Shown piece after piece: positions 5,513 to 18,568 of a stretch of DNA of 64,000 bases. The translations under genes were made by a program, and so were the position numbers. Numbering within the stretch: the stretch's first letter is position 1; every line of letters begins with the position of its first letter. Location of the stretch: positions 82,731 through 146,730 of the forward strand of contig JBFMHM010000001.1 in the NCBI GenBank assembly GCA_040753015.1, read 5' to 3'. The stretch comes from Candidatus Omnitrophota bacterium (GTDB lineage: Bacteria > Omnitrophota > Gorgyraeia > Gygaellales > JBFMHM01). The notes beneath the pieces are model-generated. The model saw only the letters and a program-made list of their open reading frames with translations, searched no databases and was not told the origin of the DNA.

Positions 5513-8500
5513 GCTTTGTCCATTTACATGTTCATACACAATTCAGCTTACTTGATGGCGCCTGCCGCTTAAAAGATTTATTTAAAAAAGCTCAAGATTT
5601 TAAAATGCCCGCCCTTGCAATTACTGACCATGGTAATATGTTTGGCGCAATCGATTTCTATCTTGAAGCAAAAAATTTTAATATAAAGCCAATTATTGGC
5701 TGCGAAATATATATTGCCCCTGGTTCACGCTTCGATAAAAAATTGAGCGCAAGCAAATCAGGTAATACCCGCGAAGAAGCTTCATACCATTTTATCCTTT
5801 TAGCAAAAAACGAGGCTGGCTACAAAAACTTAATGAAATTAGTCAGCATCGGCTATCTGGAAGGATTTTATTATAAACCAAGAATTGATAAAGAAATTTT
5901 AAGCGCACATTCTAACGGCCTAATTGGCCTATCTGCATGCCTAAAAGGGGAAATTCCTCAGGCCCTGCAATTTGATAATTTTAATGATGCGCTAAAAATT
6001 GCTGATGATTTTAGTGCTATATTTGGAAAAGGAAATTTTTATCTCGAGCTACAGGAAAATGGAATTAGAGAACAAAAAAAGGTAAATATCGATCTTTTAA
6101 AAATTGCGAAAAAATTATCGCTGCCAGTTGTTGCAACAAATGATGTGCACTACATAACAAGAGAAACCGCCAAAGCGCACGATGCTCTTTTATGCGTTCA
6201 AACTCAAAATGTCTTAAGCAATTCGAATCGTCTAAAACTTGAAACGGATGAATTTTATTTTAAAAGCGCCGAAGAAATGAAAAACCTATTTAAAGATTAT
6301 CCTCAAGAGATTATTTCTAATACACTAACTATTGCTGAAAGCTGTAATTTAAAACTAGACTTTTCTGAAACTCACTTACCAAAATTTGAACAAGACCAAT
6401 TCTCAAGTAACGAAGAATTTTTAAAGGATTTATGTCTCAAGGGCCTTACAAAAAGGTTCGATAAAATCACTCCGCAAATAAAGGAACGGCTTGACTATGA
6501 ATTAGAAGTTATTAATAAAACAGGATTTATAAGCTACTTTCTAATTGTCTGGGATTTTGTTAATTACGCAAAAAATAATAATATATCCGTCGGCCCAGGC
6601 AGAGGTTCAGCATCAGGCAGTTTAGTTAGTTATTTATTAAACATTACGGATATTGATCCTTTAAAATATGGCTTACTATTTGAAAGATTCCTAAATCCCC
6701 AACGTATAACTATGCCTGATATTGATATTGACTTCTGTTACGAAAGAAGACAAGAAGTAATTAATTATGTGACTAAAAAATATGGGCAGGAGAATGTTGC
6801 TCAAATTATAACTTTTGGAACTATGCAAGCGCGTGCAGCAGTGCGCGATGTAGGCAGAGTTATGGGCTTAAGTTATGCCGACGTCGATAAAATTGCAAAA
6901 ATGATACCACCCGATCCAGGCATCGATTTATCTACCGCGATAAAATCAGAACCCGAGCTAGAAAACATACAAAAAAATGACCCTAATATCAACCAATTAA
7001 TTGAAACAGCGCTCGCCCTTGAAGGCTTAAATAGGCATGCGTCAGTACATGCTGCAGGAGTTCTTATCGCAGATAAAGCATTAACAGAATATACGCCTTT
7101 GTATAAAACTTCTGACGATCAAATTACAACCGGCTATTCAATGGGAATATTAGAAAAAATCGGCTTATTAAAAGTTGATTTTCTGGGCTTACGGACATTA
7201 ACTGTTATTGAAAAAACCTTAAAGATTATTGAACAAACAAAAAATAAAAAAATCTCAATTAACGATATTCCTCTTGACGATAAAAAAACGTTTAGGCTTT
7301 TGGCCAGTGCGGAAACCTATGGTGTTTTTCAGCTGGAAAGTTCGGGAATGAGGGATCTTCTTAAAAAATTAAATCCTGATAGATTCGAAGACTTAATTTC
7401 TTTACTTGCGCTTTATAGGCCTGGGCCTATTGGTTCTGGAATGCTCGATGATTTTATGCAGAGAAAACATGGTAAGATACCGATAAAATATGACCACCCA
7501 AAGCTTGAGCCTATTTTAAAAGATACATATGGCATAATAATATTCCAAGAACAGGTTATGCGTATTGCAAGTGAACTTGCCGGATTCAGCCTTGCCCAAG
7601 CAGATTTGCTTCGCCGAGCAATGGGTAAAAAAATTCCTGAAGTTATGGAAAAACAAAGGATTGATTTTGTTAAAGGCTGCCATAAAAATACAATTGGTGA
7701 AAAACTTGCTAATAAAATATTCGATCTTATGGAATATTTTTCCGGCTACGGTTTTAATTTAAGCCATAGTGCTGCTTATGCAATGATTTCTTATCGCACA
7801 GCATATCTTAAAGCAAACTACTTAGTTGAATTTATGGCCGCGCTTCTAAATAGCGAAAAAAATAATACTGATAAAATTGTTGAATATGTTAGCGAAGCAA
7901 GCCGCTTAAATATAAATGTATTGCCTCCGGATATAAATGAAAGTTTTTCTGATTTTACTGTCATTAACGAAAAAACGATCCGCTTTGGCTTATTGGCAAT
8001 AAAAAACACAGGGGAGGGTGCGATAGAATCAATTGTTAAAGCAAGAGATGATGGAAAATTTAAAACTCTTGAAGACTTATCCCAAAGAATTGATTTAAGA
8101 CTTGCTAACAAAAAAGTTTTAGAGAGCTTAATCAAATCTGGGGCATGTGATTCTTTTGGGCTTTATCGCGCGCAATTAATGATGATACTTGAAGAAGTGC
8201 TTGCTAAATCGCAACGGCTAAACCGCGAACGCGATAAGGGGCAGCTTAGTTTGTTTGACTTTAATATTGACGTAGTAAAAACACCCAATGTGCAAGAATG
8301 GCCAAGTCAACAATTGCTTGCATTTGAAAAAGATTTCTTGGGTTTTTATATAAGCGACCACCCGCTAAACAGCTATTCAAGCACAATTAAAAAATTCAGC
8401 ACACCGCAAATAAACAAGCTTCCCCAACTTAAAGACGGCCAAGATATAAGAATCATTGGCCTAATTTCAAAAATCAAGCATACACTAACACGAGCAAAAA

Positions 8501-8940
8501 GCGAAAAAATGGCGATAATTAGGATAGAAGATTTATCGGGAAATGTTGAGGTTTTAGTTTTTCCAAAAACTTTTAATAAGACTCAAAATAATCTTGGCGC
8601 AAATAACATTGTAGTTGCGTCAGGAAAATTAAACCTAAAAGAAGATTCGCCTAAAATAATTGCTGACGATATTGTGTTGTTAGATGATGCCTTTAGGCTG
8701 ATATCGGGAATCAACATTAGAGTAAAAACACTTACCGAAGATACCCTACAAAATATTAAACAAAGGCTTTCGCTGTTTCCGGGAAAAACTCCAGTGAACC
8801 TATTAATTGAAAATAATCACCCAGAAAAAAAATGCGTCCACATCCGCGTTGGACAAAACCTTTATGTAAACCCAAGCGAAGACTTAATTAGCCAGTTAGA
8901 AAGCTTTATTGGCGAAGATCACCTAAGCTTCTCTTTGTAA
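5503..8940 (+). CDS. dnaE: DNA polymerase III alpha subunit
   Basis: 1145 aa. FVHLHVHTQFSLLDGA is the PHP domain. The polymerase core (GPGRGSASGSLVSYLL, ITMPDIDIDF) and a C-terminal OB fold are present. Confidence 0.92.
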   Translation: MGMSFVHLHVHTQFSLLDGACRLKDLFKKAQDFKMPALAITDHGNMFGAIDFYLEAKNFNIKPIIGCEIYIAPGSRFDKKLSASKSGNTREEASYHFILLAKNEAGYKNLMKLVSIGYLEGFYYKPRIDKEILSAHSNGLIGLSACLKGEIPQALQFDNFNDALKIADDFSAIFGKGNFYLELQENGIREQKKVNIDLLKIAKKLSLPVVATNDVHYITRETAKAHDALLCVQTQNVLSNSNRLKLETDEFYFKSAEEMKNLFKDYPQEIISNTLTIAESCNLKLDFSETHLPKFEQDQFSSNEEFLKDLCLKGLTKRFDKITPQIKERLDYELEVINKTGFISYFLIVWDFVNYAKNNNISVGPGRGSASGSLVSYLLNITDIDPLKYGLLFERFLNPQRITMPDIDIDFCYERRQEVINYVTKKYGQENVAQIITFGTMQARAAVRDVGRVMGLSYADVDKIAKMIPPDPGIDLSTAIKSEPELENIQKNDPNINQLIETALALEGLNRHASVHAAGVLIADKALTEYTPLYKTSDDQITTGYSMGILEKIGLLKVDFLGLRTLTVIEKTLKIIEQTKNKKISINDIPLDDKKTFRLLASAETYGVFQLESSGMRDLLKKLNPDRFEDLISLLALYRPGPIGSGMLDDFMQRKHGKIPIKYDHPKLEPILKDTYGIIIFQEQVMRIASELAGFSLAQADLLRRAMGKKIPEVMEKQRIDFVKGCHKNTIGEKLANKIFDLMEYFSGYGFNLSHSAAYAMISYRTAYLKANYLVEFMAALLNSEKNNTDKIVEYVSEASRLNINVLPPDINESFSDFTVINEKTIRFGLLAIKNTGEGAIESIVKARDDGKFKTLEDLSQRIDLRLANKKVLESLIKSGACDSFGLYRAQLMMILEEVLAKSQRLNRERDKGQLSLFDFNIDVVKTPNVQEWPSQQLLAFEKDFLGFYISDHPLNSYSSTIKKFSTPQINKLPQLKDGQDIRIIGLISKIKHTLTRAKSEKMAIIRIEDLSGNVEVLVFPKTFNKTQNNLGANNIVVASGKLNLKEDSPKIIADDIVLLDDAFRLISGINIRVKTLTEDTLQNIKQRLSLFPGKTPVNLLIENNHPEKKCVHIRVGQNLYVNPSEDLISQLESFIGEDHLSFSL

Positions 8941-8978: not shown

Positions 8979-9089
8979 ATGAGTTGGGGATTGTTTGGAC
9001 AAATCGTATTACTAATAATTATATTTTCTTTTGTAAAAACATTTGTGAAATGTATGCACGACACCTGCTGCATAAAGTGTAAAAAATAA
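8979..9089 (+). CDS. putative small Cys-rich membrane peptide (36 aa)
   Basis: Hand-translated as MSWGLFGQIVLLIIIFSFVKTFVKCMHDTCCIKCKK. AGGAGG sits 5 nt upstream and a TATAAT at 8951. It is not in the ORF track (under 60 aa). Confidence 0.3.
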   Translation: MSWGLFGQIVLLIIIFSFVKTFVKCMHDTCCIKCKK

Positions 9090-9091
9090 TT

Positions 9092-9361
9092 ATGCAAATA
9101 AAAATTGAGCAATTAAGCGAAGAAGAATTGAAAAAGCGAAAAGTTCCATCTTGGCCGATATGGGAAAAAGAAATATCCACTTTTGACTGGCATTATGACG
9201 ATATGGAAGAGTGTTTATTTCTTGAAGGCGATGTTACCGTTACAACGAAAGACGGCAAAAGCGTAAATATTAAGCCCGGCGACTTCGTCACCTTCCCAAA
9301 AGGTTTATCTTGTAGTTGGAATATAAAGAAACCAGTTAAGAAATATTATAGGCTGTTCTGA
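9092..9361 (+). CDS. cupin-fold protein (DUF861/cupin_3 family)
   Basis: WPIWEKEISTFDWHYDDMEECLFLEGDVTVTTKDGKSVNIKPGDFVTFPKGLSCSWNIKKPVKKYY matches the cupin_3 pattern end to end. Confidence 0.7.
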   Translation: MQIKIEQLSEEELKKRKVPSWPIWEKEISTFDWHYDDMEECLFLEGDVTVTTKDGKSVNIKPGDFVTFPKGLSCSWNIKKPVKKYYRLF

Positions 9362-9375
9362 AGCCATGCCTAACT

Positions 9376-9539
9376 CTGCTAAGAAAAATATCGAGTGTTT
9401 TATAGCGAGAAATTTTTTTAGCGTTTAGAGTTTGGCATAGTTATTTTGAATTTGCAGTTGTACTTGTAGGGACAGGCCTGTGTGCCTGTCCGAAATAATG
9501 AGATTGAAGAATAATTAAGTTGTGTGTGCCCCCGGAATT
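9376..9539 (+). repeat. 165-nt repeated leader element, copy 1, with conserved hairpin GTAGGGACAGGCCTGTGTGCCTGTCC (9466-9491) and 3' CCGGAATT site
   Basis: About 80% identical to 10175-10340. The 5' and 3' thirds are near-identical and the centre has indels. It lies directly upstream of the CDS at 9573. Confidence 0.7.
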
Positions 9540-9548
9540 TCTTATAAT
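9529..9548 (+). promoter_or_regulatory. CCCCCGGAATT operator-like site abutting a -10 TATAAT
   Basis: CCGGAATT at 9532-9539 and TATAAT at 9543-9548. AGGAGG and the ATG follow at 9573. Confidence 0.45.
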
Positions 9549-9572
9549 CTAGTATTATCTGTAAGGAGGAAG

Positions 9573-9998
9573 ATGAGAAAACTAATTAAGCATAAGAATG
9601 TTTCAGAATCAACAGATTTAGCAAGTTTAGTTAATAAAATATATGAACAGTTGGTTAGTCTGGAGAAAAAAGTTGATACATTAATCAATCGGTCTTCAGT
9701 TAGCACCCATAATAGCGGTGATCGTTTCCAAAGGGCTAATTCGCATTTTAGGCGCTCTGATCGCTTTCAAGGGGCAAGATATGAGGAAAGACCCAGAGAA
9801 ATAAATTTTACGCAGGCGGTTTGCGCAGAATGTGGTAAAGAATGCGAAGTTCCTTTTAGGCCCACAGGAGATCGTCCAGTATATTGTAGCGATTGTTTTT
9901 CGGTGCGTAATGATTCTGGATCATCTAGAGGAAAATTCAATAATAATAAGAGAAAGGGTTCATTTTTCCGAAGAAGAAAAGAGCACTCTCGATCTTAA
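9573..9998 (+). CDS. zinc-ribbon protein, Arg/Lys-rich (CxxC-x17-CxxC)
   Basis: The start is revised to MRKLIKHKN, with AGGAGG 6 nt upstream; the track ORF begins at 9522. The sequence contains CAECGKECEVPFRPTGDRPVYCSDCF, RFQ/RR repeats and a basic tail. Confidence 0.5.
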   Translation: MRKLIKHKNVSESTDLASLVNKIYEQLVSLEKKVDTLINRSSVSTHNSGDRFQRANSHFRRSDRFQGARYEERPREINFTQAVCAECGKECEVPFRPTGDRPVYCSDCFSVRNDSGSSRGKFNNNKRKGSFFRRRKEHSRS

Positions 9999-10174
9999 TG
10001 TTGCTTGCTTGCTCGCCTCGCGGCGAAGCCGAGGGCCGGCAGGGAGGCAGGTGTTCCCGGAATTCTAGGATTAATAACCCGATGGCAAAGATAAAGCTAG
10101 ATTTGCACAACAAAAACTCCGGCCGAATCTTTGTGCATTTTAGGTTTTAGGCCGTTTTTCGGCCATGTCGAATT

Positions 10175-10340
10175 CTGCTAAGAAAAATATCGAGTGTTTT
10201 ATAGCGAGAAATTTTTCTAGCGATTAGAGTTCGACGAAGTTGCATTTGTAGGGACAGGCCTGTGTGCCTGTCCGAAATGATTGATATTCGGATGATGGAA
10301 TAATTAAGTGTCGTGTCCCCGGAATTAAATTTCCGGAATT
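10175..10340 (+). repeat. 165-nt repeated leader element, copy 2 (hairpin at 10248-10273; inverted CCGGAA-6-TTCCGG at 10319-10336)
   Basis: See copy 1. Tandem TTACCAAACAAA(R)TATAAT modules follow at 10352-10371 and 10409-10427, then AGGAGG and the ATG at 10460. Confidence 0.7.
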
Positions 10341-10459
10341 TCAAAAACCTATTACCAAACAAAAATATAATATCTAATAAATTGTTAGGTAAAAATAACT
10401 TGATTTTTTTACCAAACAAAGTATAATTTTATTAGTTAAATGTTTGGTAAGGAGGATGT

Positions 10460-10774
10460 ATGAGCGTTATTAAGGGTGTATTAAAAGAAGAGCTACAAAA
10501 TTCTCTCGATATGCTGAAGGGATATAAAAGAGAGATAGTCAAAATAAAAGGCTGTCTTGTTAGGAAAAAAGTTGGTAAACATTATTATTACTACTTGGCT
10601 AAGAGGCAAGGAAAAAAGATAAAGTTTACATACAAAGGTCCGATTTCAGAAGAGATAAGAAAAGCCTATACTCAGCAAAGAAAAATGCTTAATAAATATA
10701 AGAAATTATTACTACAGGTTAAAAATCAAATTAAATTTATAAGGAGAGCTCTGCGTGGAAAAGAAACAGCGTGA
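10460..10774 (+). CDS. hypothetical small basic protein, partner of the downstream nucleotidyltransferase-fold protein
   Basis: 104 aa, Lys-rich. It overlaps the next ORF by 20 nt, so the two are translationally coupled. Confidence 0.5.
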   Translation: MSVIKGVLKEELQNSLDMLKGYKREIVKIKGCLVRKKVGKHYYYYLAKRQGKKIKFTYKGPISEEIRKAYTQQRKMLNKYKKLLLQVKNQIKFIRRALRGKETA

Positions 10775-11453
10775 GTTATGCCTTGAAATATTAAGACGGT
10801 TTAATGAATCTGGTATACTTGAAAATTTTATTTTAATCGGTAGCTGGGCTGCATATTTCTATAATGAATATTTTTCAGGTACTTCGTATTTAGATCGCCT
10901 CGCTGTAAAAACCAGAGACATTGATTTCTTAATTGATAATCCTCGAAAAATAAAAAGAGATGTTAATATACCCAAGCTCCTTGAAGATTTAGGTTTTATT
11001 GTTATATATAAAGGCAGCGGAGGATATATAAAATTAGATCACCCTGATTTGCTACTTGAATTTTTATCTCCTGAATTAGGTAAAGGCACAGGCAAGCCAA
11101 TACCTCTACCAAAATTAGGAGTAAATGCTGTTGCGCTAAGATTCTTAAGTTTTTTATCTAGTAATACAATTGAAGTTAAGGTTGAGAATTTCTATGTAAC
11201 TTTACCTCACCCAGCTAATTTTGCCTTACATAAATTGATTATTTTCCAACGTAGGTTTAAAGAAGAAAAAGCGCTAAAAGATAGAAATACTGCGATTGAA
11301 GTTTTAAAAGCTTTGATTAATAAGGGCGAGTCAGATACAATTAAGCAAGTTTTTGATTCAATGCCTAAAAAATGGCAAAACAAAATAGTTAATGGCTTAG
11401 ATAAAAACCAAGATAAGAATATATTAATCATATTGCAAAAAATAATTAAATAA
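10755..11453 (+). CDS. putative minimal nucleotidyltransferase-fold protein
   Basis: LIGSWAAYFY...TRDIDFLID fits the pol-beta superfamily G[SG]x(n)DhD pattern. The assignment is tentative. Confidence 0.4.
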   Translation: MEKKQRELCLEILRRFNESGILENFILIGSWAAYFYNEYFSGTSYLDRLAVKTRDIDFLIDNPRKIKRDVNIPKLLEDLGFIVIYKGSGGYIKLDHPDLLLEFLSPELGKGTGKPIPLPKLGVNAVALRFLSFLSSNTIEVKVENFYVTLPHPANFALHKLIIFQRRFKEEKALKDRNTAIEVLKALINKGESDTIKQVFDSMPKKWQNKIVNGLDKNQDKNILIILQKIIK

Positions 11454-11463
11454 GAGTAAGTCA

Positions 11464-11547
11464 TGCAAATAAAAATTGAAAGATTAAGTTATAATGTGTT
11501 GATAGAATTAATGTTACGCAGAAACGACACTGGATTTCTATGCTAGA
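11464..11547 (+). pseudogene. truncated duplicate of the cupin gene 5' end
   Basis: atgcaaataaaaattga is a 17/17 match to 9092-9108, and attaag follows after 3 mismatches. It translates MQIKIERLSYN... and stops after 27 codons. Confidence 0.4.
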
Positions 11548-11678
11548 GAAAAAAGTGTTGCGTCAATTGCCAGGTAAAGGCCGCAGTGTGCATTACGATT
11601 TAGCCTGGCCAGAGAATAAATCGTGAAGAGGTAAAATTTAGTGTTAAAATAAAGGGGAAATAATTATAGTAGCTGTCC

Positions 11679-11731
11679 CCGGAATTTCCCGGAATTCCTA
11701 GATTGCTGCTTAGTTTTTCAAATGGTATAAT
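11679..11731 (+). promoter_or_regulatory. partial third copy of the leader-element 3' end (tandem CCGGAATT, GGAATTCC) plus extended -10 TGGTATAAT
   Basis: aataattatagtagctgtccccggaatttcccggaattcc parallels the 3' ends of copies 1 and 2. TGGTATAAT lies at 11723-11731, upstream of 11790. Confidence 0.5.
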
Positions 11732-11789
11732 AAAGAAAATTTGCTAGGCTTAATGAAAACAAAAACTTTCTTAAATTGGAAATAAAGTT

Positions 11790-12401
11790 ATGAGTGAAAT
11801 TATTTATATTCTCACAAATGAAGCGATGAGTGGCTATGTAAAAATCGGTAAAACAACCAATAATCTTGAGCAACGGGTTAGAGAATTGAGCGCGTCAACA
11901 AGCGTTCCATTGCCTTTTACGGTTTTTTATGCTTGCACAGTAAAAAATGCTCAATTTGTTGAACATCAACTTCACGATGCTTTTGATGATAATCGTGTCA
12001 ACCCAAAAAGAGAATTTTTCCGAGTCGCTCCAGAACGAGTAGTCGCGGCTCTAAAGCTTGCAGAAATTGAGAATATAACACCAAAGAAAGACTTTGTTGA
12101 ATCTAAGGAAGATCAGGCGGCATTAAATGCCGCAAGAAAAATAAGAAGTAGATTTAACTTCGAAATGGTAAAAATTCCCGTAGGAGCTGAATTGTATTTT
12201 AGTCGCGATGAAAGCAGTAAGGCAAAAGTCATTGATACGCGTACCGCCAATTCTATTGAATTTAACGGAAAAAAAACAAGTCTATCTCGTTCAGCCCAAA
12301 AAATACTCGGCTATCAATACGGTGTATCAGGCACAGATTACTGGATGTATGAAGGCGAGACGCTCGATGAGCGCCGCAGGAGATTTGAAAGCGGAAAATG
12401 A
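11790..12401 (+). CDS. T5orf172/MUG113 (GIY-YIG-like) domain protein
   Basis: The N-terminus IIYILTNEAMSGYVKIGKTTNNLEQRVRELS...PLPFTV...EHQLHDAF matches the T5orf172 domain pattern. Confidence 0.6.
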   Translation: MSEIIYILTNEAMSGYVKIGKTTNNLEQRVRELSASTSVPLPFTVFYACTVKNAQFVEHQLHDAFDDNRVNPKREFFRVAPERVVAALKLAEIENITPKKDFVESKEDQAALNAARKIRSRFNFEMVKIPVGAELYFSRDESSKAKVIDTRTANSIEFNGKKTSLSRSAQKILGYQYGVSGTDYWMYEGETLDERRRRFESGK

Positions 12402-12405
12402 TTTT

Positions 12406-13449
12406 ATGAAAACTAAATCTTTAAATAGAAACTTACACAAAGCAAGCCAAGCCAAAAAAGACGAGTTTTATACTCAACTTGCCGATATTGAAAATGAATT
12501 GAAATATTATAAAGATCAATTCCGCGGTAAAGTAGTTTTTTGCAACTGTGATGATCCTAGAGAAAGTAATTTCGTCAAATATTTCAGCATGAATTTTGAG
12601 CATTTAGGGCTAAAAAAATTGATAGCCACACATTATAAAGAAGCAAATTTATTTTCCCAAGAACCGCCTTATAAATTAGAATACACAGGCGATAAAAATG
12701 GTAATCGCACACCTGATCCAAGTGAGTTTATGACTGAGATGATAGGAACGGGCGATTTTCGTAGCGTGGAGTGTATTGAACTACTCAAAGAAGCGGATAT
12801 TGTTATGACTAATCCGCCATTTTCGCTGTTTCGTGAATATGTTGCACAGCTCGTGAAGTACAAAAAAAAGTTTTTGATTATAGGCAATACAAATTCACTA
12901 ACCTATAAAGAGATTTTTAAGCTAATTAAAGACAACAAGCTCCGTACTGGTTACACGAATTTTAATGTAGGAATGTTTTTTATTGTGCCAGACGATTGGG
13001 AGCATTTTCATCATATCGATGAAGATGGCAAGAAAATTGTGCGTGTCTCAACTTCGTGTTGGTTTACGAATCTTGTAGTTGAGAAGCATAAGCAAGATAT
13101 CACTCTTTATAAGAAATATTCACGTAAAGAATATCCAAAGTACTACAATTATGATGCAATTAACGTAGACAAATATACCGACATACCTTGCGACTATGAC
13201 GGTGCGATTGGTGTACCCATTACTTTCCTTGATAAATATAATCCGGAACAATTTGAGGTTATTGGTTTGGGTATATCTAATTCAGGGATAGAAATTGGAG
13301 TTAAACCATATAAAGAGGAACATAAAAAATACAGAAGAGAAGTTCAAAAAAGAGGTGCAGTTGATGGTGATTTATATATGATTAAAAATGGAATTGTTGA
13401 TGTTCCTTACGCTCGAGTTATTATAAAAAACAAGAAGGTGAAAAAATAA
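12406..13449 (+). CDS. N6-adenine DNA methyltransferase (EcoRI-methylase-like family, NPPF motif)
   Basis: The start is revised to MKTKSLN, 4 nt after the upstream stop; the track ORF begins at 12208 in an overlapping frame. The sequence contains DEFYTQ..., CNCDDPRESNFVKYF and DIVMTNPPF (motif IV). Confidence 0.7.
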   Translation: MKTKSLNRNLHKASQAKKDEFYTQLADIENELKYYKDQFRGKVVFCNCDDPRESNFVKYFSMNFEHLGLKKLIATHYKEANLFSQEPPYKLEYTGDKNGNRTPDPSEFMTEMIGTGDFRSVECIELLKEADIVMTNPPFSLFREYVAQLVKYKKKFLIIGNTNSLTYKEIFKLIKDNKLRTGYTNFNVGMFFIVPDDWEHFHHIDEDGKKIVRVSTSCWFTNLVVEKHKQDITLYKKYSRKEYPKYYNYDAINVDKYTDIPCDYDGAIGVPITFLDKYNPEQFEVIGLGISNSGIEIGVKPYKEEHKKYRREVQKRGAVDGDLYMIKNGIVDVPYARVIIKNKKVKK

Positions 13450-13450
13450 T

Positions 13451-14557
13451 ATGAAAATTGAACTACACAAAATTAAAATTCATAGAGTGATAGCGGGCTA
13501 CAAAGATAGCGCAGAAGAAGGCGTAGTGGCTTATGATGGTAAACTTGATATTCGTCCAAAATATCAGCGTGAATTTGTGTACAAGGAAAAACAACGTAAT
13601 GCCGTAATCGAAACCATCAAAAACAGCTTTCCACTGAATGTGATGTATTGGATGATCAGAGAAGATGGTGGCTACGAAATGCTAGATGGCCAACAGCGCA
13701 CTATCAGTATCGGTCAATATGTGAATGGCGATTTTTCACTGAACGACCGGTTTTTTCATAATCTGACCAAAGAAGAGCAAGATAAAATTTTGGATTATGA
13801 ATTGATGATTTACTTTTGCGAAGGCACGGATAAAGAGCGATTAGACTGGTTCACGGTCATCAATACATATGGGGAAAAAGTGAACGAACAAGAAATTCGC
13901 AACGCGGTTTACACGGGGCCATGGCTCTCGGATGCTAAATTAAAGTTTAGCAAATCAAATTGCGCGGCATATCTTTTGGCAAATGACGGTGGGCAATTGG
14001 TAAACGGTTCGCCGATCCGCCAGGAATACTTAGAAACTGCACTTTCTTGGATAAACGATGGCAAAATAGAAGATTATATGGCCAAGCATCAGCATAAAAA
14101 AAATGCTGATGAATTATGGCAATATTTTCAGGATGCTATTGCATGGACAAGAAAGACGTTTACGCATTACCGCAAGGAAATGAGTAGTGTACAATGGGGC
14201 GAATTGTATAACCAATTCAAAGACAAAAAACTCAACGCCAATAAACTCGAAGCTGAGATTAAAGAGCTAATGCAAGACGAAGATGTTACCAAGAAATCAG
14301 GTATTTATCCATATGTTTTAACGCGGCAAGAAAAACATCTCTCAATACGCGCGTTTAATGACAAAATGAAGCGCGAAGCATACGAAAGGCAAAAAGGTAT
14401 TTGCCCACACTGCAAAAGCGAGAACAAGAAAAAGAAATGGGAAATTGAAGAAATGGAGGCCGACCATATTACCCCTTGGCATGAGGGTGGAAAGACAACC
14501 ACAGAAAATTGTCAAATGTTATGCAAGCAATGCAACCGGACTAAGTCTGGAAAATAA
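13451..14557 (+). CDS. DUF262 (ParB/GmrS-like) - HNH fusion endonuclease
   Basis: The N-terminal DUF262 hallmarks are QREFVY, LDGQQRT and DWFTVINTYGEKVNEQEIRNA. The C-terminal canonical HNH is CPHCKSE...ADHITPWHEGGKTTTENCQMLCKQCNRTK. It starts 1 nt after the methyltransferase stop. Confidence 0.7.
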   Translation: MKIELHKIKIHRVIAGYKDSAEEGVVAYDGKLDIRPKYQREFVYKEKQRNAVIETIKNSFPLNVMYWMIREDGGYEMLDGQQRTISIGQYVNGDFSLNDRFFHNLTKEEQDKILDYELMIYFCEGTDKERLDWFTVINTYGEKVNEQEIRNAVYTGPWLSDAKLKFSKSNCAAYLLANDGGQLVNGSPIRQEYLETALSWINDGKIEDYMAKHQHKKNADELWQYFQDAIAWTRKTFTHYRKEMSSVQWGELYNQFKDKKLNANKLEAEIKELMQDEDVTKKSGIYPYVLTRQEKHLSIRAFNDKMKREAYERQKGICPHCKSENKKKKWEIEEMEADHITPWHEGGKTTTENCQMLCKQCNRTKSGK

Positions 14558-14561
14558 AAGC

Positions 14562-15260
14562 ATGAATTCATTTAAAGGCGTTATCTATACGGTTTTGAAA
14601 AAAATTAAAAATTTGATTATTGGATTTTTAAGATGGGTGCATAGAGTAGCAAAATTTCTAAATAAACACGCAAAGATTAGGTGGCCAGAGACCATGATGG
14701 CTGTGGCTAATATAATTCTTGCAATAGTAACTTGGCGTTATGTCGTTCTTACTAAATACATCGTTCAGCAACAAATAAATCAAACTAACCAACAAAAAGA
14801 GCAATTTGAGTTGGTTAATAGAGCTAAGGTGTGGTTTCAAGGCTTATCAGGAGATATACAAAAAGGAAATTTATTATTTATTAATTCTGGCAATTTGCCA
14901 GCAAAATATTGTAAATTTTTATGGAGAATAGTTAAAGTAGATGGTGAACAAGTTTTACAAGAATTTAAGGAACAAAGTAATATAATCAAAATTGATAGCC
15001 TTGATCAAGAAGAGATTTTTTCACTCCCATATTCTTCGAATTTTAGTCTAAAAGATCAGATTGTTTTTCTTGTTGTCGTATGGAAATATAGTGGAAAAGG
15101 AATAGAAGATTCGACCCCAAAAGAAAAAGTTCTACTATGGAATATTGACCAGAAGCCTAATGCAGCATGGGTTATTCCATCTTCTAGTATGGGCTCGAAT
15201 CATGTAAGCACACTGGATGCTATAAAGAAAGAATTAAGATCTGCTTTAGATAAAGAATAA
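14562..15260 (+). CDS. hypothetical membrane-anchored protein
   Basis: The start is revised to MNSFKG, 4 nt after the HNH stop. One TM helix (MMAVANIILAIVTWRYVVL) is followed by a 150-aa soluble domain. Confidence 0.45.
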   Translation: MNSFKGVIYTVLKKIKNLIIGFLRWVHRVAKFLNKHAKIRWPETMMAVANIILAIVTWRYVVLTKYIVQQQINQTNQQKEQFELVNRAKVWFQGLSGDIQKGNLLFINSGNLPAKYCKFLWRIVKVDGEQVLQEFKEQSNIIKIDSLDQEEIFSLPYSSNFSLKDQIVFLVVVWKYSGKGIEDSTPKEKVLLWNIDQKPNAAWVIPSSSMGSNHVSTLDAIKKELRSALDKE

Positions 15261-15350
15261 GATAACAAGCAATAAGTAAAAAAGTAAAATGGGGGCGTTT
15301 CTAATTTTTAAAAAAATAAACGTCCCAATTTTCTAACACCGTTTTATTTT

Positions 15351-16268
15351 ATGTTTGATCAAGTTAATATTCCAGATGAATTTATTACAGAAAAAATTTC
15401 TTGGGAAGAAATAAAGAAGATCTTTGGTAAATTTAGTGATCAATGGATTTTTCGCGGGCAAAGTAATGATAGCATTCCAGAATCTATTCTTTATCGAAAT
15501 GAAAAATGTCTCAATTACGGCTCCGAAGAAGAAAGAGCTATAAACGATTTTAAAAATGAGATTGATAAGTATCCCGGTGTCGAATGTAGCCCGGTAACAA
15601 AAGTTGATTGGTTATGTTTGATGAGGCATTACGGCTATCCTAGTAGAATTCTAGATTGGACGAGTTGTCCGTACATAGCAACTTTTTTCGCATTTAAAGA
15701 AGATAAAATTAATTCTGGAGCACCTGTTGTTTGGGCTGTAAACAAGGATTGGCTAAAATATTGGGCTATTCGTAGAATAAAAACTATAGAAAAATATATA
15801 AATTGCACAGAAACTGATTTAACAACAGATGAATGTTTCAATGATATATTTATATTTAATAATGATTATTTGAATTTTGTATATCCATTTTTACCGAGTA
15901 GTAATATTTCAAAATCAGGTAGAATCTCTAAACAAAAATCAGTATTTTTGTGCCCAGGAAATCCCATTAGGGATTTTATGACTAACCTATGTTGCGAGTT
16001 TAGTTCACAAAATAATATAAACAGAGAAATATCCGATGGTTTGATTAGTCAATTCACAGATGAAAAAAATAAATATATTTATAAATTACGAATTAATATT
16101 GAAGATAAAGATAAAATCATAAATGATCTGAAAAATAAAAATATAACAGAGCACAGTCTATCTTTAAATCCACATTCTCTTGATGAAGCCGGTAAAAAAT
16201 TTAAAGAAATGGCACTAAAAAGAGACGAATATTGGCGTAATTGGCTATCAGAAGAAATAAATATATGA
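15351..16268 (+). CDS. FRG-domain protein
   Basis: WIFRGQSNDSIPESILYR...DWLCLMRHYGYPSRILDWTSCPYIATFFAF contains the FRG-domain signature motifs. Confidence 0.6.
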   Translation: MFDQVNIPDEFITEKISWEEIKKIFGKFSDQWIFRGQSNDSIPESILYRNEKCLNYGSEEERAINDFKNEIDKYPGVECSPVTKVDWLCLMRHYGYPSRILDWTSCPYIATFFAFKEDKINSGAPVVWAVNKDWLKYWAIRRIKTIEKYINCTETDLTTDECFNDIFIFNNDYLNFVYPFLPSSNISKSGRISKQKSVFLCPGNPIRDFMTNLCCEFSSQNNINREISDGLISQFTDEKNKYIYKLRINIEDKDKIINDLKNKNITEHSLSLNPHSLDEAGKKFKEMALKRDEYWRNWLSEEINI

Positions 16269-16284
16269 GAGAGGCGGGAGACTG

Positions 16285-17037
16285 ATGACCCAATATTATA
16301 ACTCAAAACGAAAATATAATTTGTATACGCCAAACGGCGCGGAGGCGTATAAACTTAGCCGCTCGCAAATTGAGCTTTACATAAATTGCCCAAGATGTTT
16401 TTATCTCGATAGAAAACTTGGTGTGGGAAGACCGCCGGGGTTTCCTTTTGCCTTAAATAGCGCAGTCGATATCCTTCTTAAAAAAGAATTTGACCTATTG
16501 CGGGCAAACGGCGAGGCTCACCCGTTAATGAAAAAATATAAAGTAGATGCAATTCCTGCAAAACACCCTGACCTTGAAGATTGGCGAAATAATCGAAAGG
16601 GAGTGCAATATTTGCATAAGCCGACTAATTTTCTTATTACTGGCGCAATTGACGACTTATGGGAAAACTCCGCTAAAGAATTTATCGTTGTGGATTATAA
16701 GTCTACTGCGAAAGCAGAAGAAATTGTTGAGCTTAAAGAAGACTGGCAAGATTCATATAAACGCCAAATGGAAATATATCAATGGCTTATTCGTCAAAAT
16801 GGGCATAAAGTATCCAACACAGGTTATTTTGTATATTGCAACGGGAAAATAGGCCAAGATAAGTTTGACGGAAAACTTGAATTTGATATTGCGCTAATTG
16901 CACACGTAGGCAAGGACGATTGGATAGAAGGCGTTATTAAGAATATCCACTGCTGCTTGTCTAAAGACGAAATACCGCCTGCTGATAAAAACTGCGACTA
17001 TTGTGCTTATCGTGAATCAGCCAATATGGTTCGTTAA
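16285..17037 (+). CDS. PD-(D/E)XK nuclease, Cas4/RecB-like, with Cys clusters
   Basis: The N-terminus has CPRC and the centre has GAIDDL...VVDYKST (D..D/E.K). The C-terminus carries HCC...CDYC, a possible 4Fe-4S site as in Cas4. Confidence 0.55.
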   Translation: MTQYYNSKRKYNLYTPNGAEAYKLSRSQIELYINCPRCFYLDRKLGVGRPPGFPFALNSAVDILLKKEFDLLRANGEAHPLMKKYKVDAIPAKHPDLEDWRNNRKGVQYLHKPTNFLITGAIDDLWENSAKEFIVVDYKSTAKAEEIVELKEDWQDSYKRQMEIYQWLIRQNGHKVSNTGYFVYCNGKIGQDKFDGKLEFDIALIAHVGKDDWIEGVIKNIHCCLSKDEIPPADKNCDYCAYRESANMVR

Positions 17038-17045
17038 AAGCGATA

Positions 17046-17525
17046 TTGCAAATGAATAAAATCAAAAAATATTTATGTTGGTTGGGTGGTGGCATAGCCA
17101 CTGTTCTTTGGTATATCTTTGCCGAAGGATGGCTTATTTTAATGGTTGACTTATTCGGGTTTTTTGGTTCAACGATAATCGTAACATTAGTTACGGTTAT
17201 TTTATCATGGCTTATTATCTATGCATCTAAAAACTCTAGTAAACTTGATCGCCTGCAGAATTGGTTAGTAGGCAAAGAAGGCGACCTATCTAAAAAAGCG
17301 CAAGCAGCAATGAAAAGCGGTAAGATATTAGTTGTAGCTAATACGGCAATTTTTTTAGGGCCAATGGTTGCTACATTTTTGATGCTTATGATGGGAATCA
17401 AAGCTAAGAAAGTTTATATTTATTCTATTTTTTGTGCTTTACTATGCGCAATTGTCTGGTGCGGGCTTTACTCGGGCATATTTTGGGAAATTCATAAAAT
17501 ATTTCACAAACCACCAATTACATAA
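17046..17525 (+). CDS. hypothetical small membrane protein (3-4 TM helices)
   Basis: 159 aa. It starts 8 nt after the upstream stop and is hydrophobic throughout. Confidence 0.5.
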   Translation: MQMNKIKKYLCWLGGGIATVLWYIFAEGWLILMVDLFGFFGSTIIVTLVTVILSWLIIYASKNSSKLDRLQNWLVGKEGDLSKKAQAAMKSGKILVVANTAIFLGPMVATFLMLMMGIKAKKVYIYSIFCALLCAIVWCGLYSGIFWEIHKIFHKPPIT

Positions 17526-17527
17526 AA

Positions 17528-17683
17528 ATGCAAACCATTACTGCAAAAGAAATGAGAAAGTTAGATGCTTTGGCGACAAGCCGATACGGAATTCCCAGCT
17601 TGATTCTGATGGAAAATGCGGGAAGATCAGCCAAAGAAGAAGCCTTAAAGATGCTACCAAAAAATGCGCCAAGAAAACAGTAA
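17528..17683 (+). pseudogene. truncated N-terminal fragment of NAD(P)H-hydrate epimerase (nnr/yjeF_N)
   Basis: MQTITAKEMRKLDALATSRYGIPSLILMENAGRSAKEEALKML matches the YjeF_N start pattern (T..EMR..D..A....GIP...LMENAG). It stops at codon 52, before the GxGNNGGDG motif. Confidence 0.45.
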
Positions 17684-17785
17684 CCTTTGGCTTATTGAAA
17701 AAAGGCTTGATTAAAAAACAAGCAAATAAATTTACCGGTGGGGTAGTAGTTGGAGATATTTCCCTCCCACAAAATTAAAGGGGCT

Positions 17786-18568
17786 ATGAAAACAGTTATA
17801 TTTTATTTTTCCGGGACAGGAAATTGTTTGAAGGTTGCGCAGGATATTGCCGCAGGACTTAAGGATACCGAAATTATCGCTATTCCTAAAGTAATCGATG
17901 AAAGCGAAATTTCTACCAAGGCAAATAATGTCGGAATAATTTATCCTGTTTACATGTTCGGAATGCCTTTAATTCTTAGCCGGTTTATAAAAAAACTTAA
18001 ATTTAATAGTGCTCAATATATTTTTAGCGTGGCAACATACGGCGGAATGATGGGAAGCACGCTTATACAAACAAAACGAGAACTCAAAAAACAGGGGATA
18101 AAATTATCCGCGGGATTTGGCATAAAGATGCCGGGAAATTATACGCCGCTTTACGGAGCATTGCCTTTAGATAAACAAGAAAAAATGTTCGCGAAAGAAA
18201 ATGAGAAGATTAAGCTTATTTGCGAAATCGTGAAAGCATCTAAAGAAGCACCTATAGAAAAAGGTTTAATTCTCGAAAATCTGTTACTAAGCGGTATTAT
18301 TTACAACGTTTGTTCGCCACAGATACCCAGCATGGATAAATCTTTCTGGGTAAATGATAAATGTAACAGCTGTGGCATCTGCCAAAAAGTTTGCCCGGTG
18401 AAGAATATTAAAATTGTAGACGCAAAGCCAGCGTGGCTAGGTAAATGCGAGCAATGTATGGCATGTTTACAGTGGTGCCCCAAAGAAGCAATCCAATACG
18501 GCAAAAGGACAATCGGACGCAAACGCTATCATCATCCGCAAATATCTCTAGACGATATTATTTTTTAA
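17786..18568 (+). CDS. EFR1-family ferrodoxin (flavodoxin-like domain plus 2x[4Fe-4S])
   Basis: The start is revised to MKTVIFYFSGTGNCLKVAQ; the track ORF begins at 17750. Two cysteine clusters are present: CNSCGICQKVCP and CEQCMACLQWCP. Confidence 0.6.
   Translation: MKTVIFYFSGTGNCLKVAQDIAAGLKDTEIIAIPKVIDESEISTKANNVGIIYPVYMFGMPLILSRFIKKLKFNSAQYIFSVATYGGMMGSTLIQTKRELKKQGIKLSAGFGIKMPGNYTPLYGALPLDKQEKMFAKENEKIKLICEIVKASKEAPIEKGLILENLLLSGIIYNVCSPQIPSMDKSFWVNDKCNSCGICQKVCPVKNIKIVDAKPAWLGKCEQCMACLQWCPKEAIQYGKRTIGRKRYHHPQISLDDIIF

What the first reader, a model, noticed from the sequence alone, without database searches (positions are those of the whole stretch)
11790..15260. T5orf172 - EcoRI-like N6A methyltransferase - DUF262/HNH nuclease - membrane protein operon
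Four translationally coupled genes. The methyltransferase has DEFYT and NPPF motifs. The nuclease fuses a GmrS-like DUF262 NTPase-like domain to a canonical HNH domain instead of the usual DUF1524. A GIY-YIG-like T5orf172 protein leads the operon. This could be one of two things. It could be a restriction-modification system with an unusual two-nuclease architecture. Or it could be a type IV (modification-dependent) GmrSD-like enzyme paired with a protective methyltransferase. Both are uncommon arrangements.
Basis: partly seen in the sequence, partly recalled or inferred. Interest (0 to 1): 0.7.

Follow-up and report, generated by a model that had tools for sequence, protein, structure and literature searches.

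The report
EcoRI-family methylase with conserved DUF262-HNH nuclease
The core of this operon is a very widespread two-gene restriction-modification cassette, and its nuclease stays almost unchanged while the partner methylase swaps its likely DNA-reading segments, which suggests that the methylase, not the nuclease, chooses the target.

Summary
The four genes are real and tightly packed on the + strand at 11790-15260, but two start codons needed correcting. Only the two middle genes form a conserved unit.

An EcoRI-family N6-adenine methyltransferase (12406-13449) lies 1 nt upstream of a DUF262(ParB-like NTPase)-HNH nuclease (13451-14557). The same pair occurs in 77 of 80 related loci from many phyla, on plasmids and in a phage. 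PADLOC's Type II MTase and REase models match both proteins end to end, so the arrangement is common and already catalogued.

The surprise is evolutionary. The nucleases are 73-99% identical (median 82%) although synonymous sites are saturated. The methylases carry two hypervariable cassettes (13 and 26 types, 38 combinations). No nuclease column tracks the cassette type.

My best reading (about 0.45) is that the methylase supplies sequence specificity and the nuclease is a specificity-blind, NTP-switched cutter, as in Type III systems.

The T5orf172 gene is a promiscuous leader that also precedes many unrelated restriction-modification cassettes. The "membrane protein" is an orphan with one homologue in 5.8 billion proteins. 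I found no paper describing this pair, and REBASE could not be consulted.

The parts
11790..12401 (+). T5orf172 / GIY-YIG-like protein (203 aa). A promiscuous leader gene, not a dedicated subunit of the pair.
   Evidence: PF10544 E=3.4e-19. PADLOC PDC-S57 full length, E=2.4e-70. Found in 12 of 80 MT-NUC loci. Homologues at 74-93% identity precede EcoRI-family MTases (27 loci), Tsp45I REase (8), Type III Res (4), other MTases, RhuM and KilA-N.
12406..13449 (+). EcoRI-family gamma-class N6-adenine DNA methyltransferase (347 aa).
   Evidence: PF13651 E=5.9e-126, full profile. PADLOC MTase_II E=8e-114. 48% identical to M.EcoRI. DEFYT, CNCDD and NPPF are kept in 70-71 of 71 homologues.
12937..13083 (+). 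Methylase variable region VR1 (residues about 178-226).
   Evidence: 13 sequence types among 73 MTases. VR1 co-varies with VR2 (0.70 against 0.47 identity) but is also shuffled against it.
13267..13410 (+). Methylase variable region VR2 (residues about 288-335), a hypervariable cassette between highly conserved flanks.
   Evidence: Column conservation is 0.22-0.43, against 0.85-0.94 in the core. There are 23-26 cassette types of different lengths. The M.EcoRI cassette type recurs in L040, L044 and L049.
13451..14557 (+). DUF262 (ParB/Srx-like NTPase) - helical region - HNH nuclease (368 aa).
13685..13699 (+). DGQQR nucleotide-binding motif of the DUF262 domain.
   Evidence: Identical in 71 of 71 homologues. 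Retained (DGQQR or DGKQR) in homologues at 28-64% identity.
14402..14548 (+). HNH catalytic core with zinc-ribbon cysteines (CxxC ... DH ... N ... C ... N).
   Evidence: PF01844 covers residues 318-366. D338, H339, N353 and N362 are invariant. Profile against PDB sequences: Gme HNH 4h9d E=1.1e-8.
14562..15260 (+). Orphan ORF4 (232 aa) with one predicted transmembrane helix. A locus-specific passenger.
   Evidence: No family hits. No homologue in 80 loci. Two proteins in the 5.8e9 database, itself and one at 62% identity. Kyte-Doolittle peak at residues 45-63.
15283..15334 (+). Terminator-like hairpin followed by a U-run, ending the operon.
   Evidence: RNA fold -15 kcal/mol, z=-2.5. The consensus scan missed it.

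Best explanation
The functional unit is the two-gene cassette methylase -> nuclease.

Shown:
- The EcoRI-family methylase keeps all catalytic motifs.
- The nuclease keeps the ParB-like DGQQR nucleotide-binding motif and the HNH catalytic and zinc residues.
- The pair is obligately linked and reshuffled by recombination.

Inferred:
- The methylase marks host DNA with m6A at a site set by its two swappable segments, VR1 and VR2. These lie in the C-terminal half, where gamma-class N6A methylases carry their target-recognition domain.
- The nuclease has no sequence specificity of its own. It is directed to, or licensed at, unmethylated sites through the methylase. It uses NTP binding or hydrolysis in the DUF262 domain as a conformational or sliding switch before the HNH domain cuts.
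- This is the division of labour of Type III Mod/Res (or Type I M2S/R), with a ParB-like NTPase in place of a helicase motor.

T5orf172 is an independent module: either a homing-endonuclease-like gene or a single-gene defence candidate that rides in front of many RM cassettes. ORF4 is an unrelated passenger.
For: Obligate pairing:
- The MTase lies directly upstream on the same strand in 77 of 80 loci, usually with a 1-nt gap.
- The same pairing is seen at 36-59% identity on plasmids and in a Flavobacterium phage.

Nuclease conservation is selective, not recent:
- Median pairwise identity is 82%, with dN about 0.11 and dS at or above about 2 (saturated).

Methylase variability:
- Median pairwise identity is 63%, with a conserved core and two hypervariable cassettes.
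- VR1 has 13 types and VR2 has 26 types, giving 38 combinations in 73 proteins.
- The M.EcoRI VR2 type recurs in nuclease-linked MTases.

The nuclease does not follow the cassette type:
- Nuclease identity is 0.842 for same-type pairs and 0.826 for different-type pairs, against 0.70 and 0.47 for VR1.
- No nuclease column has more than 0.60 of its entropy explained by VR2 type, with a null 99th percentile of about 0.45-0.55. Six methylase columns outside VR2 reach 0.8-0.96.

Modules recombine:
- Window against L011: DNA is about 95% identical across the MTase and the first 250 nt or so of the nuclease, then 63-83%.
- In L083 the T5orf172 and nuclease are 93% identical to the window proteins, but the MTase is 54%.

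Other support:
- One MAG carries two pairs with different VR2 types and nucleases 82% identical.
- A natural in-frame fusion of an EcoRI-methylase domain that has lost DEFYT, CNCDD and NPPF to DUF262-HNH exists.
- DGQQR and the HNH residues are invariant.
- The structure resembles BrxU, SspE and CTP-switch ParB/Noc.
Against: - No biochemistry is available, and no recognition motif is known for any VR type.
- That VR1 and VR2 set specificity is inferred from their position and cassette behaviour, not shown.
- M.EcoRI works as a stand-alone methylase with an independent REase and shares every conserved segment with these methylases. There is therefore no visible nuclease-docking feature.
- MTase-nuclease identities correlate only weakly (r=0.19). 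That fits free shuffling, but it equally fits no physical contact.
- The fusion is a single case, and its dead methylase domain could mean something else.
- I could not run a complex prediction.
- PADLOC files the nuclease as an ordinary Type II REase.
Confidence: 0.45

Rival explanations
1. Orthodox Type IIP system. The DUF262-HNH protein recognises one fixed sequence by itself. All partner methylases modify that same site, and VR1 and VR2 are tolerated surface variation or an arms-race surface.
For: PADLOC MTase_II and REase_II models match full length. The two genes are separate, and M.EcoRI itself belongs to a classical Type IIP system.
Against: About 26 VR2 types with large length differences lie between highly conserved flanks, in the region expected to be the target-recognition domain. 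The invariant NTPase motif is unexplained. Two pairs with different VR types occur in one genome. The window shows no avoidance of GAATTC or AATT, which is weak evidence.
Confidence: 0.2
2. SspE-like logic. The DUF262 domain itself reads the m6A mark, or its local density, whatever the sequence context. NTP hydrolysis on marked (self) DNA keeps the HNH domain off, and unmarked DNA is nicked or cut. No methylase-nuclease contact is needed.
For: This explains a constant nuclease with variable methylase specificity, and the lack of a docking feature relative to M.EcoRI. SspE and BrxU are the nearest folds. SspE couples recognition of a modification to its NTPase (PMC10952713).
Against: No m6A-reader domain was detected. 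Two pairs in one genome would be redundant. The fusion to a methylase-like reader domain argues for sequence targeting.
Confidence: 0.15
3. Guard or addiction module. The nuclease is a non-specific toxin held in check by the methylase or by methylation. Phage attack on the methylase releases it and causes abortive infection, and the VR diversity reflects escape from phage inhibitors.
For: Linkage is obligate, and both VRs are hypervariable. The locus sits in a defence island with TA-like genes.
Against: The VRs lie in the expected DNA-recognition half rather than on an obvious inhibitor surface. No direct evidence exists. All catalytic methylase motifs are conserved, as expected if methylation itself matters.
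Confidence: 0.08
4. One reading: (a) a four-gene system with two nucleases (T5orf172 and HNH) plus a membrane partner, or (b) a modification-dependent Type IV GmrSD-like enzyme with a protective methylase.
For: All four genes are packed with 1-4 nt gaps before a terminator-like hairpin. T5orf172 recurs with the pair, sometimes between the MTase and the nuclease. The DUF262 fold is that of GmrSD enzymes.
Against: ORF4 is an orphan. T5orf172 is absent from 68 of 80 loci and precedes unrelated RM systems. Type IV enzymes do not need a methylase, yet this nuclease almost never occurs without one. There is no DUF1524.
Confidence: 0.07

Closest known systems
EcoRI restriction-modification system (M.EcoRI, PF13651)
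   Same: The methylase is a full-length family member, 48% identical to M.EcoRI, with DEFYT, CNCDD, NPPF and the same C-terminal tail.
   Different: The partner nuclease is DUF262-HNH, not the PD-(D/E)XK enzyme R.EcoRI. Gene order is methylase first. The window's VR1 and VR2 differ from those of M.EcoRI, so the target is probably not GAATTC.
GmrSD family Type IV enzymes (GmrSD, BrxU) and SspE
   Different: The protein is 368 aa, not about 560-590. It has a zinc-ribbon PF01844 HNH instead of DUF1524. It is always next to a methylase, whereas GmrSD and BrxU are solitary and modification-dependent.
Type III restriction-modification (Mod/Res)
   Same: Operon order is methylase then nuclease. The methylase carries swappable recognition segments while the nuclease subunit is conserved, and the nuclease has an NTPase module.
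   Different: The methylase is gamma-class EcoRI-family, not beta-class Mod. The NTPase is ParB-like, not an SF2 helicase. The nuclease is HNH, not PD-(D/E)XK. No complex has been shown.
ParB/Noc/KorB CTP-dependent DNA clamps
   Same: These are the best Foldseek hits for residues about 1-250 (probability 0.97-0.99), and the nucleotide-binding fold is shared.
   Different: TM-scores are low (0.2-0.4). No parS-type HTH was identified. The protein is fused to a nuclease.
PADLOC PDC-S57 and phage T5orf172 homing-endonuclease-like genes
   Same: Gene 1 matches PDC-S57 end to end. Phage T5orf172 genes are treated as homing endonuclease genes at recombination boundaries (PMC10448857). Here it sits at the boundary of swapped RM cargo.
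   Different: The context is chromosomal defence islands of uncultured bacteria. The C-terminal domain of about 100 aa has no family or structure match. Activity is untested.

Membership tests
EcoRI_methylase family (PF13651) | Full-length profile match above the gathering score | tested here: met
   420.9 bits against a cut-off of 26.4, profile positions 1-345 of 345.
EcoRI_methylase family (PF13651) | Catalytic NPPF (motif IV) and the family's DEFYT and CNCDD motifs, as in M.EcoRI | tested here: met
   All are present in the window protein and in 70-71 of 71 homologues.
EcoRI_methylase family (PF13651) | GAATTC specificity | not testable with these tools
   VR1 and VR2 differ from those of M.EcoRI. 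GAATTC is not depleted: 22 observed, 24 expected.
Orthodox Type II (IIP) restriction-modification | Separate adjacent methylase and endonuclease genes | tested here: met
   The genes are 1 nt apart. PADLOC MTase_II and REase_II models match full length.
Orthodox Type II (IIP) restriction-modification | The endonuclease itself carries the sequence specificity that matches its methylase | tested here: inconclusive
   Comparative data argue against it. The nuclease is invariant across about 26 methylase cassette types and has no tracking columns. There is no biochemistry.
Orthodox Type II (IIP) restriction-modification | No nucleotide cofactor requirement | not testable with these tools
   The invariant DGQQR NTP-binding motif suggests otherwise.
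GmrSD / BrxU Type IV restriction enzymes | N-terminal DUF262 domain with DGQQR | tested here: met
GmrSD / BrxU Type IV restriction enzymes | C-terminal DUF1524 (PF07510) nuclease domain | tested here: not met
   Only PF01844 and PF14279 HNH match. There is no DUF1524 hit.
GmrSD / BrxU Type IV restriction enzymes | Stand-alone gene without a cognate methylase; cleavage dependent on modification | tested here: not met
   A methylase lies immediately upstream in 77 of 80 loci. Dependence on modification itself is not testable here.
Type III restriction-modification | Res subunit with SF2 helicase motifs and a PD-(D/E)XK nuclease; beta-class Mod | tested here: not met
   No ResIII or helicase hits for the nuclease. 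The methylase is PF13651, not PF01555.
Type III restriction-modification | Specificity resides only in the methylase subunit | tested here: inconclusive
   Comparative evidence is consistent with this. There is no functional test.
T5orf172 / PADLOC PDC-S57 | Profile match over the whole protein | tested here: met
   PF10544 E=3.4e-19. PDC-S57 positions 5-208 of 212, E=2.4e-70.
T5orf172 / PADLOC PDC-S57 | Acts as a single-gene unit independent of its neighbours | tested here: inconclusive
   Downstream partners vary across at least six RM or defence families, which fits independence. About two thirds of 70 partners are RM genes, which also hints at a link with RM.

The most novel reading that the evidence does not exclude
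The pair represents an uncharacterised mechanistic class of restriction-modification. A gamma-class EcoRI-family methylase with two combinatorially exchangeable recognition cassettes acts as the only specificity subunit. A small, extremely conserved ParB-like NTP-switch/HNH protein acts as the specificity-blind cutter, working as a helicase-free analogue of Type III Res. It would either be loaded by the methylase at unmethylated sites or read the m6A state directly. The conserved nuclease and T5orf172 genes would serve as homology anchors for cassette exchange across phyla.
Probability: 0.4. Interest if true: 0.75.

Novelty: new member of a known kind. Interest (0 to 1): 0.55.

Why it matters
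If the methylase alone sets specificity, this very abundant cassette would be a compact, naturally modular restriction system: about 700 aa in total with swappable recognition cassettes. It is especially abundant in Patescibacteria and other uncultured lineages. Its NTP use would resemble ParB CTP switches rather than helicase motors.

That would add a mechanistic type to restriction-modification. It would also explain how one nuclease gene stays more than 80% identical across phyla, and it would offer a small programmable methylase/nuclease scaffold.

If it proves to be an ordinary Type IIP enzyme, the locus is routine. The remaining puzzle would then be why the methylase is so variable and the nuclease so constrained.

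Tried and rejected
- AF2 on a shallow alignment (26 sequences, 84-91% identity) failed with pLDDT 39. A 50-sequence alignment spanning 60-91% identity gave pLDDT 82.
- Sequence searches of the PDB found nothing for the methylase or T5orf172, and only HNH domains plus a marginal BrxU hit for the nuclease.
- NCBIfam gave no useful names.
- Rfam found nothing in 9000-18000.
- The upstream intergenic region 11454-11789 is not conserved in any related locus.
- The promoter scan was at background level: 18 found against 15.8 expected.
- Palindrome-avoidance analysis of the 64-kb window gave no clue to the recognition site. GAATTC was 22 observed against 24 expected, and AATT 915 against 913.
- The C-terminal domain of T5orf172 has no Pfam match even at E<=5.
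- Literature searches on DUF262+HNH+methyltransferase, DUF262+EcoRI, PF13651, ParB-like+HNH+RM, DUF262 since 2023, PDC-S57 and RAATTY found no paper describing this pair.
- Recent horizontal transfer as the reason for nuclease conservation was rejected, because dS is saturated.
- A hidden specificity region in the nuclease was rejected after region-wise and column-wise tests.
Full report
OBSERVATION

The four ORFs lie head to tail on the + strand.
- T5orf172, 11790-12401: PF10544 E=3.4e-19 and PADLOC PDC-S57 full length, E=2.4e-70.
- The methyltransferase matches PF13651 end to end at 421 bits. Its real start is ATG 12406 (347 aa), 4 nt after the T5orf172 stop, not the mechanical ORF start at 12208.
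- The nuclease, 13451-14557 (368 aa), starts 1 nt after the methylase stop. It has GmrSD_N/DUF262 (E=1.9e-15) plus a PF01844 HNH domain (E=6.7e-13) and no DUF1524.
- ORF4 starts at ATG 14562 (232 aa, the NCBI call). It has one hydrophobic helix and no family hit.
- A hairpin with a U-run at 15283-15334 closes the unit.

The source is a 417-kb contig of a Candidatus Omnitrophota MAG.

The locus lies in a small defence island between dnaE (5503-8940) and dinB (18569-19738). Its neighbours are:
- an NTP_transf_8 toxin-antitoxin-like pair (10460-11453);
- an FRG/PDC-S15 gene (15351-16268);
- a Cas4-like PD-(D/E)XK gene (16285-17037).

M.EcoRI itself has KVVYCNCDD at that position and the window enzyme has KVVFCNCDD.

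WHAT IS CONSERVED

A scan of one genome per species found 368 genomes encoding a nuclease relative. The best 80 are 80-89% identical. They come from many Patescibacteria lineages, Omnitrophota, Elusimicrobiota, Gammaproteobacteria, Bacteroidota, Poribacteria, Planctomycetota, Atribacterota and one archaeal MAG.

- An EcoRI-family methylase sits immediately upstream on the same strand in 77 of the 80 loci. In two of the other three the nuclease lies within about 460 nt of the contig start; in the third (L002) a different, unmatched ORF lies upstream. The stop-to-ATG gap is usually 1 nt.
- ORF4 has no homologue in any of these loci and only one homologue in 5.8e9 proteins.
- A T5orf172 homologue is present in 12 of 80 loci. 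It lies upstream of the methylase in seven or eight of them. In four it lies between the methylase and the nuclease, at about 30% identity or, in L037, detected only by clustering.
- Everything else in the flanks is variable. Recurrent neighbours include a large serine recombinase (11 of 81 loci, the 80 plus the window), RhuM, Bro-N, Hypoth_Ymh, DUF2130 and SocA/Panacea.

The pair also occurs elsewhere:
- at 37-59% identity on plasmids of Aeromonas, Macrococcoides, Variovorax, Gordonia, lactobacilli and others, annotated [quoted passage not shown];
- in seven IMG/VR contigs;
- in Flavobacterium phage laban6-1.

The family comprises 488 50%-identity clusters at E<=1e-30. PADLOC's REase_II model PDLC03418 matches the nuclease over positions 1-372 of 372 (E=1e-126), and MTase_II matches the methylase. 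The arrangement is therefore common and already catalogued as Type II RM.

THE UNUSUAL PATTERN

Among 71 complete pairs:
- Nuclease pairwise identity runs from 73 to 99% (median 82%).
- Methylase pairwise identity runs from 49 to 98% (median 63%).
- The nuclease is the more conserved partner in 98.6% of pairwise comparisons.

This is not recent transfer. Synonymous sites are saturated (dS about 2 or uncomputable) while nuclease dN is about 0.11.

The methylase core is itself well conserved (column conservation 0.85-0.94). Two segments are hypervariable:
- VR1, residues about 178-226.
- VR2, residues about 288-335, with conservation 0.22-0.43. It lies between highly conserved flanks (GVPITFLDKYNPEQFEI ... 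INGK..Y.RILIKNKKVKK) and varies in length by tens of residues.

VR1 falls into 13 types and VR2 into 26 types. These give 38 combinations in 73 methylases, and single VR1 types pair with up to 10 VR2 types.

M.EcoRI, next to R.EcoRI on an E. coli plasmid, is a normal member of the family. Its VR2 (KFRKGVDEKDLSING) is the same type as in L040, L044 and L049, whose partner is DUF262-HNH.

Both VRs lie in the C-terminal half. In gamma-class N6A methylases that is where the target-recognition domain sits. This is established knowledge of the class, not tested here.

The nuclease has no comparable variable segment; its lowest 20-residue block scores 0.73. It also does not follow the methylase type:
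- Nuclease identity is 0.842 for same-type pairs and 0.826 for different-type pairs. The corresponding figures for VR1 are 0.70 and 0.47.
- No nuclease column has more than 0.60 of its entropy explained by VR2 type, against a permutation 99th percentile of about 0.45-0.55. Six methylase columns outside VR2 reach 0.8-0.96.

The modules recombine:
- Against L011, the window DNA is about 95% identical over the methylase and the first 250 nt or so of the nuclease. It then drops to 63-83%, which places a breakpoint inside the nuclease gene.
- In L083 the T5orf172 and nuclease are 93% identical to the window proteins, while the methylase between them is 54%.
- One Patescibacteria MAG carries two pairs with different VR2 types and nucleases 82% identical.

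All catalytic motifs are intact throughout:
- DEFYT in 71 of 71; CNCDD and NPPF in 70 of 71 each.
- DGQQR in 71 of 71, and the DH...N...N residues of the HNH core.
- The motifs persist in homologues at 28-64% identity.

One representative protein (P0266, from an organism that reads TGA as Trp) is an in-frame fusion of an EcoRI-methylase domain to DUF262-HNH. In it DEFYT, CNCDD and NPPF are all degenerate. It therefore looks like a dead methylase domain kept as a reader. It is a single case.

STRUCTURE

An AF2 model (pLDDT 82) has three parts: an N-terminal ParB/Srx-like domain, a helical middle region and a zinc-ribbon HNH domain.
- Foldseek ranks the CTP-binding ParB/Noc structures first, at probability 0.97-0.99 but with low TM-scores.

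MECHANISM

Shown: an obligate methylase-nuclease pair with intact active sites, a constant nuclease, a modular methylase, and frequent recombination between the modules.

Inferred, and my best explanation (confidence about 0.45): the methylase is the only specificity determinant. The DUF262-HNH protein is a specificity-blind, NTP-switched cutter that acts at or from unmethylated methylase sites. This is a Type III-like division of labour with a ParB-like switch instead of a helicase.

Rivals:
- An orthodox Type IIP enzyme, with VRs that do not affect specificity (0.2).
- SspE-like direct sensing of the m6A mark (0.15).
- A guard or addiction module (0.08).

Against my reading: M.EcoRI shares every conserved segment with these methylases, so no docking feature is visible. 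No motif data or complex prediction could be obtained.

T5orf172

This subfamily is itself 74-93% conserved in the best 80 of at least 486 related metagenome stretches. In 70 of those 80 loci with a called downstream same-strand gene, that gene is:
- an EcoRI-family methylase in 27. These include pairs whose nuclease is only 28-38% identical to the window's;
- a Tsp45I REase in 8;
- a Type III Res in 4;
- other N6/N4 or D12 methylases in 9;
- Hypoth_Ymh, RhuM, KilA-N and others in the rest.

It is therefore a promiscuous leader of RM cassettes, not a subunit of this one. Phage T5orf172 genes have been interpreted as homing endonuclease genes at boundaries of genetic exchange (PMC10448857), which fits its position beside swapped cargo. 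Its C-terminal domain of about 100 aa is conserved but unassigned.

COMPARISON AND NOVELTY

- The methylase is a bona fide EcoRI-family member.
- The nuclease is not a GmrSD member: it has no DUF1524 and it is not solitary.
- The pair is not Type III: it has no helicase and no beta-class Mod.
- Standard tools file the pair as Type II RM.

I rate this locus a new member of a catalogued kind. The family-level pattern is worth an experiment.

Noticed in passing
window 11790-12401; loci L083-L162: This T5orf172 subfamily (74-93% identical in the best 80 of at least 486 related metagenome stretches) sits directly in front of many unrelated RM or defence genes. These are EcoRI-family MTase (27 loci), Tsp45I REase (8), Type III Res (4), N6_N4 and D12 MTases (9), Hypoth_Ymh, RhuM and KilA-N. 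It looks like a conserved anchor next to exchangeable cargo.
   Followed up: partly
L171 6001-8067 (protein P0266): A natural in-frame fusion of an EcoRI-methylase-like domain (DEFYT, CNCDD and NPPF all degenerate) to DUF262-HNH, in an organism that reads TGA as Trp. No second EcoRI-family methylase lies within 9 kb.
   Followed up: partly
window about 13700-13775, compared with L011: A recombination breakpoint lies inside the nuclease gene. DNA is about 95% identical to another Omnitrophota MAG from 12400 to about 13700, then 63-83%, with no similarity in the flanks.
   Followed up: yes
window 15351-16268 and 16285-17037: An FRG-domain gene (PADLOC PDC-S15) is followed by a Cas4-like PD-(D/E)XK gene. 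Homologues of the PD-(D/E)XK gene (50-65% identity) recur near the MT-NUC pair or T5orf172 in L018, L036, L057, L075, L077, L113, L142, L157 and L163.
   Followed up: no
window 10460-10774 and 10755-11453: An overlapping gene pair: a 104-aa protein with no family hit, then an NTP_transf_8 (PF12281) nucleotidyltransferase. It looks like a toxin-antitoxin-type module just upstream of the operon.
   Followed up: no
window 9092-9117 and 11463-11488; 10299-10340 and about 11659-11696: A 26-nt direct repeat (88%) copies the start of the cupin gene into the intergenic region upstream of T5orf172. A second similarity of about 40 nt (79%) contains CCGGAATT(T)CC repeats. These may be scars of island insertion or shared operators.
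   Followed up: no
methylases of L004, L013, L019, L044, L049 (alignment region before GDFRS; absent in window residues about 98-115): Many partner methylases carry an insertion of about 30 aa with a D-x-D-x-DG-A-I-x-x-x-D motif that resembles an EF-hand or dockerin calcium loop. The window enzyme and M.EcoRI lack it.
   Followed up: no
loci L001, L009, L037, L061, L064, L065, L069, L077 and others: A large serine recombinase (Resolvase + Recombinase + Zn_ribbon_recom) lies within a few kb of the pair in 11 of 81 loci (the 80 plus the window). This suggests carriage on integrative elements. None was found near the window copy.
   Followed up: partly
whole window: GATC, GTAC and CATG are the most depleted 4-bp palindromes (z about -4.1 to -4.4), which hints at other restriction pressures on this genome. 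GAATTC and AATT are at expectation.
   Followed up: no
L013 and L030 (same MAG, JAKLGH01): One Patescibacteria genome carries two copies of the cassette. Their methylase VR2 types differ and their nucleases are 82% identical.
   Followed up: partly
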